Of a stretch of 28,668 bases of DNA, positions 20,932 through 21,870 are shown piece by piece; position 1 is the first letter of the stretch, and the number at the start of each line of letters is the position of its first letter. A program made the position numbers and the translations under genes. Location of the stretch: the NCBI GenBank assembly GCA_964491675.1, contig CAZBHA010000001.1, forward strand, positions 2,346 through 31,013, given 5' to 3'. This DNA is from an uncultured archaeon. Its GTDB lineage: Archaea > Iainarchaeota > Iainarchaeia > Iainarchaeales > JAAZKV01. The notes beneath the pieces are model-generated. The model was not told where the DNA came from. It searched no databases and worked only from the letters and a program-made list of their open reading frames with translations.

Positions 20932-21870
20932 CTACTTTTTTAATCCTGCTTTTTTTACTTTATCATCTAATCCTATTGATTCATTTCTTTTAACTCTTGC
21001 TAACGAGTAAATATATGAATCAATTATTTCATCAAGAGTTAATTGTTTTTTTAACCCAAACCTTGCAATTTCAATGAAATAAGTTTGAATTAATTTAAAT
21101 GCTATTTCTTCATCATCAGCACTAACTGCTTTTTTAATATCAGTAACTGAAATTGATTTTGAAGAAACTTCATTTTTAGAAACTGTGCTTGTATTTACCG
21201 CAGTTAGAAGCATTGCTCTTATTCTATCATAATCTATTTCTTTTTCAACTGTTTTTGTAGTAGTAATTGGAACTTTTTTTGTTCTGTATTTTATTTTTGT
21301 AATAACTTTTGGCTTAGTTGAAACTTTTTTTACTTTAGTAATAACTTGTGGTTTTGATTTGATGTTTCTAGTTTTATATTTTATTTTTGTAATTGTTCTT
21401 GTTGTGCCTTTTTTTCCAAGTTTTCCTGATTTTGCTAATCTCCACAACGCAACTGATTCTTCAAAAGTTTTTCCTAGACGCATTTGAGAACCAATAAATT
21501 GATTATAAGCACTAGGTCTTCGAGTATTTTTTGATTCTAATTTTTTATATTTATTCCATTCTTTTACTGCTTTTTCAAAAGTTAGGCCAGAATTTATTTG
21601 CTTTCTTATAAATAAATTATATTCAGTAACTCTTCTAGTATTCTTTTTATCTTTGTTTTTTACTTTTAATTTTTGAATATCTTCTTTTAACTTAGCAATT
21701 TCTTTATCTTGAGAAATATTACTTTTTACTGCTTTTTGAGCTGTTTTTTTATTAGAATCTAGCTGTTTTTTTACTGATTTTGAAACAGTTTTTTTATCCA
21801 CGCTTTTTTTAATAATTTTTTTTGAATTTGCTTTTTTAACAGGGCTTTTTGATTTTACTTTTTTAACCAT
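20932..21870 (-). CDS. Very basic multidomain protein: Lys-rich N-terminus, two HMG-box/YABBY-like repeats, Thr/Lys-rich linker, uncharacterised helical C-terminal domain
   Basis: Repeats KNTRRVTEYNLFIRKQINSGLTFEKAVKEW and KNTRRPSAYNQFIGSQMRLGKTFEESVALW, 38 aa apart; GGTGA RBS. The function call is inference. Confidence 0.8.
   Translation of the reverse strand: MVKKVKSKSPVKKANSKKIIKKSVDKKTVSKSVKKQLDSNKKTAQKAVKSNISQDKEIAKLKEDIQKLKVKNKDKKNTRRVTEYNLFIRKQINSGLTFEKAVKEWNKYKKLESKNTRRPSAYNQFIGSQMRLGKTFEESVALWRLAKSGKLGKKGTTRTITKIKYKTRNIKSKPQVITKVKKVSTKPKVITKIKYRTKKVPITTTKTVEKEIDYDRIRAMLLTAVNTSTVSKNEVSSKSISVTDIKKAVSADDEEIAFKLIQTYFIEIARFGLKKQLTLDEIIDSYIYSLARVKRNESIGLDDKVKKAGLKK

What the first reader, a model, noticed from the sequence alone, without database searches (positions are those of the whole stretch)
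21442..21870. Tandem HMG-box/YABBY-like motifs behind a linker-histone-like basic tail in an archaeal protein
Two 30-aa repeats (aa 76-105, 114-143) share KNTRR...YN.FI..Q...G.TFE..V..W. The second (RRPSAYNQFI...TFEESVALW) recalls the YABBY/HMG-box pattern R.PSAYN.FI...AF..AA..W but with a much shorter middle. Upstream are about 50 aa of K/S/V-rich sequence like histone H1 or HC2 tails and a short coiled coil. HMG-box-type proteins are regarded as eukaryotic or viral, so a minimal archaeal version would be notable.
Basis: partly seen in the sequence, partly recalled or inferred. Interest (0 to 1): 0.75.

Follow-up and report, generated by a model that had tools for sequence, protein, structure and literature searches.

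The report
Archaeal HMG/YABBY-like protein beside orc1
A tiny uncultivated archaeon (Iainarchaeota) encodes, directly behind its replication-initiator gene orc1/cdc6, a very basic unnamed protein with two small helix-loop-helix modules that are statistically related to the first two helices of the HMG box, a DNA-bending domain regarded as eukaryote-specific, so it is probably a new archaeal DNA-organising protein, though nothing has been tested at the bench.

Summary
Window 20932-21870 (minus strand) encodes a 312-aa protein (pI 10.3, net charge +54). It has a K/S/V-rich tail, a short amphipathic helix and two 32-aa repeats that are 50% identical (E 1e-10). Variable basic repeats and a C-terminal helical hairpin follow, and that hairpin is duplicated in the next gene.

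Both repeats are conserved across Iainarchaeota: 37/37 genomes of the window's own family and 95/215 of the phylum. AlphaFold2 models each repeat as a helix-loop-helix (pLDDT 90.6).

Pfam gives only a sub-threshold YABBY match, and fold searches find nothing significant. The family profile, however, retrieves true HMG-box and YABBY proteins from 1.84 billion sequences. It also retrieves short three-helix intermediates.

- Those intermediates match the solved TFAM HMG box B (E 2.8e-6).
- They match this family in profile-profile comparison (97-99% probability, far above shuffled controls).

The repeats therefore look like HMG-box helices 1-2 without helix 3, as in YABBY. This is not a complete HMG box.

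orc1/cdc6 lies upstream in 36/36 testable loci, and the small paralog lies downstream in 37/38.

The most likely function is a DNA-bending architectural protein linked to replication or chromatin, which is inferred, not shown. This scan reached the same reading earlier on other genomes. I found no publication describing it.

The parts
20932..21870 (-). Gene for the 312-aa basic protein (P0001), stop codon included.
   Evidence: ORF list and translation. 114 full-length homologs at E <= 1e-3, all 'hypothetical protein' from Iainarchaeota/Diapherotrites MAGs. Single copy in its own genome.
21709..21870 (-). N-terminal K/S/V-rich tail, aa 1-54.
   Evidence: 35% K, net charge +17. Variable in length and sequence among homologs. 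Contains a 27-nt DNA tandem repeat at 21805-21867.
21655..21708 (-). Short amphipathic helix ('coiled coil'), aa 55-72.
   Evidence: a/d spacing at I58, L61, I65 and L68, with L61 nearly invariant. A similar helix plus basic linker precedes the hairpin in single-hairpin archaeal proteins and in small proteins, one of them (P0143) on a phage-like contig. It also precedes each hairpin of P0113.
21535..21648 (-). Hairpin 1, aa 75-112: basic arm KKNTRRV, helix 1 (aa 83-93), loop SGLT, helix 2 (aa 98-114).
   Evidence: AlphaFold2 model with pLDDT 90.6. Invariant Y84, N85, F87, G95, F98 and W105. hhalign of repeat 1 against short-form HMG repeats gives 96.5%, E 9e-10, over 33 columns.
21421..21534 (-). 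Hairpin 2, aa 113-150: basic arm SKNTRRP, helix 1 (aa 121-131), loop LGKT, helix 2 (aa 136-148).
   Evidence: AlphaFold2 model. Carries the Pfam YABBY sub-threshold match. hhalign against short-form HMG repeats gives 97.4%, E 1.2e-11, over 34 ungapped columns. hhalign against canonical HMG boxes gives 86.5%, but over only 17 columns.
21241..21420 (-). Basic K/T-rich segment with 'KIKY(K/R)T..KSKP.VIT' repeats, aa 151-210.
   Evidence: 30% K, 22% T, net charge +20. The unit SKPKI-KYRTRT varies from none to more than six copies among homologs.
20935..21129 (-). C-terminal conserved helical-hairpin domain, aa 248-312.
   Evidence: Conserved core DDEEIAFK..QTYF.EIAR.G.K+QL.LDEII..Y.Y.L. AlphaFold2 gives two long helices, with pLDDT only 68.7 as a monomer. 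No Pfam or PDB family.
20621..20923 (-). Small acidic protein (P0002, 100 aa, pI 5.6). Its first ~45 residues are a paralog of the C-terminal domain above. It starts 8 nt after the stop codon of the main gene.
   Evidence: Translation. 171 homologs. Found downstream on the same strand in 37/38 loci. Fused as a second copy in P0042, P0110, P0113 and P0115.
21954..23021 (-). orc1/cdc6 replication-initiator gene, immediately upstream on the same strand (83-nt gap).
   Evidence: Pfam Cdc6_lid, AAA_22 and AAA_16. Found upstream on the same strand in 36/36 loci that hold upstream DNA and in L001-L004 and L049.
21871..21953 (-). Intergenic spacer with a GGTGA ribosome-binding site 7 nt before the ATG and an A/T-rich TATA-like stretch.
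   Evidence: Read directly from the sequence. Whether the gene has its own promoter or is co-transcribed with orc1 was not tested.

Best explanation
The gene encodes a lineage-specific, strongly basic nucleic-acid-binding protein of Iainarchaeota. I think it is most likely a DNA-bending or bridging architectural protein that acts with, or is co-expressed with, the replication initiator Orc1/Cdc6.

Shown by computation:
- It carries two tandem 35-aa modules. Each has a basic arm, helix 1 (S-x-Y-N-x-F-I), a four-residue Gly loop and helix 2 (aromatic ... A ... W).
- These modules are remote homologs of helices 1-2 of the HMG box, in the truncated form also seen in the plant YABBY domain. Helix 3 is absent.
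- The two hairpins are predicted to pack into one compact four-helix unit.

Inferred mechanism:
- As in HMG boxes, the basic arm and the Tyr/Asn at the start of helix 1 lie in the minor groove.
- The invariant aromatic residue at the start of helix 2 (F98, F136) aligns, through the intermediate repeats, with the intercalating Leu182 of TFAM box B. It would wedge into the base stack and kink the DNA.
- The K-rich tail and the variable KYRTRT/SKPK repeats would act as electrostatic clamps.
- The amphipathic helix and the C-terminal hairpin domain, probably paired with its free paralog encoded 8 nt downstream, would provide oligomerisation, so that several bends or bridges are made.
- The fixed position behind orc1 suggests a role in origin or chromatin architecture.
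For: - The gene and its repeats are real and conserved.
- AlphaFold2 gives four confident helices, two per repeat (pLDDT 90.6, pTM 0.75).
- Pfam YABBY is the top match in 94/94 members, best E 6e-6.
- The exhaustive profile search finds a triple HMG-box protein, P0156 (E 2.3e-5; Pfam HMG_box 1.3e-30). It also finds P0161 (YABBY at 35 bits, above the cut-off) and the Toprim_C_rpt + 4x HMG-like proteins P0142 and P0179. P0173 (4x HMG-like repeats) passes the HMG_box_2 and HMG_box cut-offs.
- The short three-helix repeats (A3) hit TFAM HMG box B (3fgh_A) at E 2.8e-6, and also UBF, HMGB3, HMGB1 and NHP6A.
- hhalign results: A2-A3 97.4% (34 columns); repeat 1-A3 96.5%; 53 two-helix hairpins against A3 98.7%, E 1.9e-16; A3 against canonical boxes 96.1% over 45 columns; A2 and A9 against canonical boxes 86.5% and 93.6%.
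- 150 column shuffles per comparison never exceeded a score of 18.5, against real scores of 33-56.
- Shape and language-model searches of the ESM Atlas list YABBY/HMG clusters, but weakly.
- Synteny: orc1 upstream in 36/36 loci and the paralog downstream in 37/38. This also holds in distant members.
- Charge: pI 10.3, net +54.
- The role of TFAM Leu182, Tyr162 and Asn163 is from my own knowledge of the published TFAM-DNA structures.
Against: - No Pfam model reaches its cut-off. Over whole genomes of the phylum the YABBY model never passes it.
- Direct HMMER searches of the family profile (A2) and of the hairpin profile (A9) against PDB sequences find no HMG box.
- The direct profile-profile match to canonical boxes covers only 16-19 columns, the basic arm plus helix 1.
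- The bridging A3 repeats were themselves selected by the family profile.
- Helix 3, which forms the long arm of the HMG L-shape, is missing. The DNA-facing surface may therefore differ, and the 'wedge' aromatics could be buried in the four-helix packing.
- The genome also has a histone and Alba, so this protein is not needed as the only chromatin protein.
- In a 985-kb contig of a relative, the GC-skew change point (~444 kb) lies ~137 kb from the locus.
- There are no expression or binding data.
Confidence: 0.6

Rival explanations
1. The resemblance to HMG/YABBY is convergent. The repeats would be an independent, simple basic helix-hairpin, for example of the helix-hairpin-helix kind. It could still bind nucleic acid, but with no evolutionary link to HMG boxes.
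For: - The strongest direct similarity to canonical boxes is a 17-19-residue stretch.
- There is no helix 3.
- Fold searches do not recover HMG boxes. RuvA domain II appears at the top of the Swiss-Prot list, though at E 2 and TM 0.39.
- Pfam HHH_6 gives weak hits in 3/94 members.
- A two-helix hairpin is easy to evolve twice.
Against: - The match to short-form HMG repeats spans both helices, the loop and the basic arm without a gap. It runs over 33-34 columns at 96-99% probability, far above shuffled controls.
- The same Tyr, Phe, Gly, aromatic, Ala and Trp positions are kept.
- Those intermediates match solved HMG boxes over all three helices.
- The loop is S-G-L-T / L-G-K-T, not the G-h-G of helix-hairpin-helix motifs.
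Confidence: 0.15
2. It is an RNA-binding or ribosome/translation-associated basic protein rather than a DNA-architectural one.
For: - Extreme lysine content and basic repeats are also typical of ribosomal and RNA-chaperone proteins.
- Neighbouring genes include both PheRS subunits and an Obg/YchF-type GTPase.
- Some HMG-like domains bind RNA (my own knowledge).
Against: - The one neighbour kept in every tested locus, on the same strand and directly upstream, is orc1/cdc6. This holds even where pheT is displaced by other genes.
- No ribosomal or RNA-binding family is detected.
Confidence: 0.08
3. The hairpins are protein-interaction modules, for example docking on Orc1/Cdc6 or on histones, and only the lysine-rich segments touch DNA.
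For: - The tight linkage with orc1.
- The two hairpins pack into a closed four-helix unit in the model, which could bury the putative DNA-facing residues.
Against: - The conserved basic arm directly before each helix 1 and the HMG-like signature residues are those that contact DNA in HMG boxes (alignment plus my own knowledge).
- Single hairpins occur in phage-like and virophage contigs without orc1.
- P0157 keeps the architecture away from orc1.
Confidence: 0.07

Closest known systems
HMG box (Pfam HMG_box PF00505 / HMG_box_2 PF09011). Closest solved example by sequence, via the intermediates: human TFAM HMG box B (PDB 3fgh).
   Same: - A basic N-terminal arm, followed by helix 1 starting (P)-S-A-Y-N-x-F/Y.
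- Helix 2 with a hydrophobic residue at its start and an invariant Trp.
- Often found in tandem copies flanked by charged tails.
- Profile-profile links at 86-99% probability.
   Different: - No helix 3, so the L-shaped long arm is missing.
- The helix 1-helix 2 connection is about 6-10 residues shorter.
- No Pfam model passes its cut-off.
- No significant structural match.
- The host is an archaeon and the gene is linked to orc1.
YABBY domain of plant YABBY transcription factors (Pfam PF04690; FIL, CRC and INO, from my own knowledge).
   Same: - A two-helix, HMG-related helix-loop-helix.
- A near-identical start, R-x-P-S-A-Y-N-x-F-I.
- The same aromatic-to-Trp spacing (F at i, W at i+7) in helix 2.
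- The best Pfam match for all 94 members.
   Different: - Only profile positions 11-37 of 69 align.
- The loop 'NP..SH.EAF' is missing.
- There is no N-terminal C2C2 zinc finger; the protein has no Cys or His at all.
- The module is tandemly duplicated.
- The lineage and the domain context differ.
Short-form three-helix HMG-like repeats in metagenomic proteins P0173, P0142, P0179 and P0137. The P0173 contig is eukaryotic (Aph-1). P0142 and P0179 also carry a Toprim_C_rpt domain.
   Same: Basic arm, helix 1, Gly loop and helix 2 all have the same length as in this protein, aligned without gaps.
   Different: They keep helix 3 (..L.xxEKxxYKxKA) and reach the Pfam HMG_box_2/HMG_box cut-offs as whole proteins. 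They have four copies, no orc1 context and none of the archaeal C-terminal domain.
Bacterial and archaeal nucleoid-associated benders (HU/IHF, Alba, Sac7d/Cren7, MC1) and linker histone H1 tails.
   Same: The expected role: small or basic proteins that bend, bridge or coat DNA. The lysine-rich tail has an H1-like composition.
   Different: No sequence or fold relation was detected. There is no Bac_DNA_binding match in the genome and no H1 globular domain. The genome has its own histone and Alba.

Membership tests
HMG-box superfamily (PF00505, PF09011 and relatives) | Match to a curated family model above its gathering score | tested here: not met
   P0001 and all 94 repeat regions give no HMG_box hit above the cut-off. 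One member gives HMG_box_2 at E 0.025.
HMG-box superfamily (PF00505, PF09011 and relatives) | Basic N-terminal arm plus helix 1 signature (K/R-R-P-x-S-A-Y-x-x-F) | tested here: met
   KNTRRPSAYNQFI and KNTRRVTEYNLFI, with Y, N and F invariant. They align to canonical boxes at 86.5-95.4% and 93.6% for the 53-hairpin profile.
HMG-box superfamily (PF00505, PF09011 and relatives) | Helix 2 with a hydrophobic wedge position at its start and a conserved Trp in the core | tested here: met
   F98/W105 and F136/W143 are invariant or nearly so. They align without gaps to Met/Trp of the short-form HMG repeats. Those in turn align to Leu/Trp of TFAM box B.
HMG-box superfamily (PF00505, PF09011 and relatives) | Third helix that, with the N-terminal strand, forms the long arm of the L-shaped fold | tested here: not met
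   The AlphaFold2 model has only two helices per repeat. After W105 only about 8 residues remain before the next basic arm. After W143 the sequence runs into GKLGKKG and the basic repeats.
HMG-box superfamily (PF00505, PF09011 and relatives) | Statistically supported remote homology (profile-profile or transitive) | tested here: met
   Whole-library E 1e-8 to 4e-4 to HMG-like and HMG-box proteins. A3 to TFAM at 2.8e-6. hhalign probabilities of 96-99%. Shuffle controls reach at most 18.5, against real scores of 33-56.
HMG-box superfamily (PF00505, PF09011 and relatives) | Three-dimensional similarity to solved HMG boxes | tested here: inconclusive
   Nothing significant appears in PDB, AFDB or BFVD. 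HMGB2 and HMGB12 appear only at E 3-5. The Atlas shape search lists a YABBY/HMG_box_2 cluster at TM 0.38 with 41 residues aligned.
HMG-box superfamily (PF00505, PF09011 and relatives) | Minor-groove binding and bending of DNA; preference for distorted DNA | not testable with these tools
   Needs EMSA, circularisation and four-way-junction assays.
YABBY domain proteins (PF04690) | YABBY model above 28.6 bits over most of its 69 positions | tested here: not met
   19.6 bits for P0001, covering positions 11-37 only. The best E in the family is 6e-6, and the highest score I read was 24 bits. None of the 215 genomes of the phylum is over the cut-off.
YABBY domain proteins (PF04690) | N-terminal C2C2 zinc finger | tested here: not met
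   P0001 contains no Cys and no His.
Linker histone H1/H5 or Hc2-like proteins | Winged-helix globular domain (H1), or homology of the Lys-rich repeats | tested here: not met
   No such Pfam match, even at E <= 10. The tail is variable in length and not conserved. Only the composition is alike.
(HhH)2 helix-hairpin-helix DNA-binding domains | Two helix-hairpin-helix motifs with a G-h-G hairpin and a connector helix | tested here: inconclusive
   The loops are SGLT and LGKT, not G-h-G. HHH_6 appears at E 0.08 in 3/94 members. RuvA domain II appears at E 2, TM 0.39.

The most novel reading that the evidence does not exclude
The two-helix 'S-x-Y-N-x-F ... G ... A ... W' hairpin is widespread in Iainarchaeota, and also occurs on phage-like and virophage contigs. 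It may be the prokaryotic or viral root, or an ancient sister, of the eukaryotic HMG box and the plant YABBY domain. In that reading the HMG box arose by adding a third helix. In these archaea the module would work as an origin-architecture factor together with Orc1/Cdc6, a counterpart of the HMG and AT-hook helpers of eukaryotic ORC.
Probability: 0.2. Interest if true: 0.9.

Novelty: new variant of a known kind. Interest (0 to 1): 0.7.

Why it matters
The HMG box is treated as a hallmark of eukaryotic chromatin; a 2026 survey of ECOD homology groups lists it as eukaryote-only (PMC13539645). This is a conserved archaeal family with a truncated, tandem HMG/YABBY-like module. It is fixed next to the replication-initiator gene, and related hairpins occur on viral contigs.

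If the reading holds, it would do three things:
- extend the superfamily into archaea;
- offer a candidate precursor, or a case of horizontal acquisition, for a key eukaryotic DNA-bending domain;
- give DPANN archaea a new chromatin or origin protein that can be tested directly in vitro.

The locus also defines two unnamed domains that no Pfam model captures: the hairpin itself, and the C-terminal hairpin shared with the small partner.

Tried and rejected
- **Direct HMMER searches against PDB sequences.** The two-repeat profile A2 found nothing. The 53-hairpin profile A9 found only a spurious polyubiquitin match built from a 9-residue motif.
- **ESM Atlas feature search.** The top row, DUF6434 (score 0.85), has no support from Pfam scans and was dropped.
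- **Complex prediction of the C-terminal domain with the small paralog.** No answer (score 0.07). This is no evidence either way.
- **NCBIfam.** No family for either protein.
- **Origin test by GC skew on a 985-kb contig of a relative.** There is a clear V shape, but the change point is near 444 kb, with a plateau to about 580 kb. The orc1 locus sits at 581-583 kb and a second orc1 paralog at 387-388 kb. The locus is therefore not pinpointed as the origin.
- **Search for origin-like repeats in the 412-bp gap at 26200-26611.** It found only A/T-rich chance repeats, and I read a small ORF in that gap from the sequence.
- **Literature searches** for archaeal or prokaryotic HMG/YABBY proteins found no description. 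The searchable library lacks most subscription-journal papers.
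Full report
**The gene and the observation**

The finding's coordinates (21442-21870) are the first 143 codons of an ORF on the minus strand, 20932-21870, 312 aa. The protein has pI 10.3, net charge +54 and 22% Lys, with no Cys or His. I read its layout as follows:

| Residues | Part |
|---|---|
| 1-54 | K/S/V-rich tail (35% K) |
| 55-72 | amphipathic helix with a/d spacing at I58, L61, I65, L68 |
| 75-112 | repeat 1 |
| 113-150 | repeat 2 |
| 151-210 | K/T-rich segment with 'KIKY+T..KSKP.VIT' units |
| 211-247 | linker |
| 248-312 | conserved C-terminal domain |

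The two repeats align at 16/32 identities without gaps, E 1e-10.

**Conservation**

- A word-indexed search found 114 full-length homologs. All are unnamed proteins from 'Candidatus Diapherotrites/ainarchaeum/archaeon' MAGs.
- The two S-x-Y-N-x-F motifs lie 37 or 38 residues apart in the 94 distinct two-motif sequences.
- In a 94-sequence alignment of the repeat region (A2), 23 columns are invariant, including Y, N, F, G, F and W of each repeat.
- The window's genome is a 935-kb, 85%-complete assembly with a single copy of the module.
- Across 215 genomes of the phylum, 95 have a match. That includes 37/37 in the window's own family. Several other families keep only one hairpin.
- GTDB record titles name Ca. 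Iainarchaeum, Ca. ainarchaeum and Ca. Forterrea. The NCBI lineage is Archaea; Nanobdellati (DPANN); Iainarchaeota.

**Structure**

AlphaFold2 on A2 gives a confident model (pLDDT 90.6, pTM 0.75) with four helices. In protein numbering they span 83-93, 98-114, 121-131 and 136-148. Each repeat is therefore a basic arm plus a helix-loop-helix, and the two hairpins pack together.

None of the fold searches gave a significant match:

- Foldseek against PDB, AFDB clusters, AFDB Swiss-Prot and BFVD: E > 1.
- HMGB2 and HMGB12, and RuvA domain II, appear only at E 2-5.
- The ESM Atlas shape search lists a YABBY/HMG_box_2 cluster in second place (TM 0.38, 41 residues, rmsd 3.3).
- The language-model feature search lists five HMG_box/YABBY clusters among seven rows, at scores of 0.76-0.80, below the level that counts.

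Structure therefore neither confirms nor refutes the HMG idea. It does show that there is no third helix.

**Sequence-profile evidence for the HMG/YABBY link**

1. *Pfam.* YABBY (PF04690) is the best hit for all 94 members, best E 6e-6. It is always below the 28.6-bit cut-off and restricted to profile positions ~11-37, the basic arm plus helix 1. At genome scale these hits are not significant.
2. *Exhaustive search.* An hmmsearch of A2 against 1.84 billion representatives gave 78 proteins at E <= 1e-3. Beyond the archaeal family they include:
   - P0156 (E 2.3e-5), a triple canonical HMG-box protein (Pfam HMG_box 1.3e-30, YABBY 1.3e-22);
   - P0161 (YABBY at 35.2 bits, above the cut-off);
   - P0142, P0173 and P0179, with four HMG-like repeats each. 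P0142 and P0179 also carry Toprim_C_rpt. P0173 passes the HMG_box_2 and HMG_box cut-offs;
   - P0137 (E 1.3e-8).

   In the last four proteins the stretch from the basic arm to the Trp of helix 2 has exactly the same length as in this protein. A typical helix 3 then follows (..L.xxEKxxYKxKA).
3. *Link to solved structures.* A profile of these 14 short-form repeats (A3) hits solved HMG boxes. TFAM box B (3fgh_A) scores E 2.8e-6 over all three helices. UBF, HMGB3, HMGB1, PMS1 and NHP6A follow. Ten of the 14 repeats hit Pfam HMG_box individually.
4. *Profile-profile comparisons.*

| Comparison | Probability | E-value | Columns |
|---|---|---|---|
| A2 vs A3 | 97.4% | 1.2e-11 | 34, ungapped |
| Repeat 1 alone vs A3 | 96.5% | 9.2e-10 | 33 |
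| A9 (53 two-helix hairpins; archaeal proteins plus proteins from viral-type or unassigned contigs) vs A3 | 98.7% | 1.9e-16 | 33 |
| A3 vs A6 (canonical HMGB-type boxes) | 96.1% | 3e-9 | 45, one 10-residue gap |
| A2 vs A6 | 86.5% | 4.5e-6 | 17 |
| A9 vs A6 | 93.6% | 2e-7 | 19 |

5. *Controls.* 150 column shuffles per comparison gave maximum scores of 15.7-18.5, against real scores of 33.1-56.1. Reversed alignments scored 7-14.

My conclusion is that the repeats are remote homologs of HMG-box helices 1-2, in the truncated form also seen in YABBY. They reach canonical boxes through an identifiable short-loop intermediate. Direct HMMER searches of A2 and A9 against PDB find no HMG box. The link therefore rests on the intermediates and on profile-profile scores.

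**A mechanistic detail**

In the TFAM alignment, the invariant Met of the short-form repeats sits on the Leu of '...QEKLKTV...'. From my own knowledge of the TFAM-DNA structures, that residue is Leu182, the intercalating wedge. The SAYN at the start of helix 1 holds the DNA-contacting Tyr162 and Asn163.

In A2-A3 and A9-A3, F136 (and F98 in repeat 1) of this protein align with that Met. The invariant aromatic at the start of helix 2 is therefore a good candidate wedge. This is inference.

**Context**

- The gene lies 83 nt downstream of orc1/cdc6 (21954-23021, Cdc6_lid/AAA) on the same strand.
- It lies 8 nt upstream of a 100-aa acidic protein (20621-20923). The first ~45 residues of that protein are a paralog of the C-terminal domain.
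- A tblastn script on 38 GTDB loci found orc1 upstream on the same strand in 36/36 loci that hold upstream DNA. It found the small paralog downstream in 37/38.
- The same order holds in L001-L004 and L049, including members only 31% identical.
- In P0042, P0110, P0113 and P0115 the small gene is fused as a second C-terminal copy.
- P0157, a distant protein with the same architecture, is not next to orc1; it sits beside scpA.
- The small paralog has 171 homologs.
- The genome also has one histone, one Alba, no HU, and a second, apparently split, orc1 paralog.

**The C-terminal domain**

It is predicted as two long helices with modest confidence (pLDDT 68.7). It has no Pfam or PDB relative. I take it to be an oligomerisation hairpin. 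The heterodimer prediction with the paralog gave no answer.

**Wider distribution of the hairpin**

- Single or double two-helix hairpins occur on a virophage contig (Sputnik-type MCP).
- They occur on phage-like contigs (HNH and Dam neighbours; a dense same-strand ORF array).
- The three-helix short form occurs on a eukaryotic contig (Aph-1).
- An amphipathic helix plus basic linker precedes the hairpin in many single-hairpin proteins, and precedes each hairpin of P0113.

**What it most likely does**

It is most likely a minor-groove DNA-binding and bending (or bridging) architectural protein. Its affinity would come from two HMG-like hairpins plus lysine-rich clamps. Its valency would come from the amphipathic helix and the C-terminal hairpin with its partner. 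Its fixed position behind orc1 points to origin or chromatin architecture.

All functional steps are inferred. GC skew in a relative's 985-kb contig changes sign near 444 kb, with a plateau to about 580 kb. The locus sits at 581-583 kb, so this does not pinpoint an origin at the locus.

**Novelty**

I found no paper describing archaeal HMG/YABBY-like proteins. A 2026 ECOD survey lists the HMG box as eukaryote-only. Earlier agents of this scan reached essentially the same reading on other genomes, so this is not the scan's first sighting.

I class it as a new variant of a known kind: an HMG-box-superfamily module without helix 3, in a new architecture and lineage.

Noticed in passing
window 20621-20923 (-), and P0042, P0110, P0113, P0115: The small downstream protein is a paralog of the main protein's C-terminal domain. 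In some lineages it is fused to it as a second copy, a gene fission/fusion pair that suggests the two hairpins work together.
   Followed up: partly
window 21241-21420 (-); homologs in alignment A1: The basic 'SKPK(I/V)..KYRTRT' unit varies from no copies to more than six among homologs. Protein lengths range from about 250 to 400 aa.
   Followed up: no
window 21805-21867: A 27-nt DNA tandem repeat (2.3 copies, 80% matches) lies inside the part coding for the lysine-rich tail. This fits growth of the tail by slippage.
   Followed up: no
P0143, P0146, P0147, P0160, P0182, P0145, P0151, P0153, P0159, P0171, P0113: An amphipathic helix (D.EI.KLK..L..LKKK) plus about 9 basic residues precedes the hairpin in many single-hairpin proteins, and precedes each hairpin of P0113. 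The recurrent unit is therefore helix 0 + basic arm + helix 1 + helix 2.
   Followed up: partly
L009 (virophage contig), L050 and L008 (phage-like contigs): Two-helix hairpins of the same type occur in a protein next to Sputnik-type capsid genes, and in proteins (106 and 336 aa) on phage-like contigs with HNH and Dam neighbours.
   Followed up: partly
P0142 and P0179 (metagenomic); P0173 on L051: These proteins join a topoisomerase C-terminal repeat (Toprim_C_rpt) to four short-form HMG-like repeats. The related P0173 lies on a contig with the eukaryotic gene Aph-1.
   Followed up: partly
own genome G000, contig C8, 9302-10220: A second orc1/cdc6 paralog matches in two adjacent open frames (query 12-181 and 180-297). 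It may be split or frameshifted.
   Followed up: no
G125:C1 (985,290 bp; loci L053-L102): There is a clear V-shaped cumulative GC skew, with a change point near 444 kb and a plateau to about 580 kb. The two orc1 paralogs lie at 387-388 kb and 581-582 kb, on either side of it. This may indicate two origins.
   Followed up: partly
G179:C1:1020-1136 (single-contig genome of the phylum): In a one-contig genome the hairpin gene lies about 1 kb from the start of the record, as if the record had been set to begin at the orc1 locus.
   Followed up: no
window 26282-26542 (+): The 412-bp gap between pheS and the next ORF holds a short unlisted ORF. It starts at the ATG at 26282 and encodes a hydrophobic, membrane-like peptide.
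   Followed up: no
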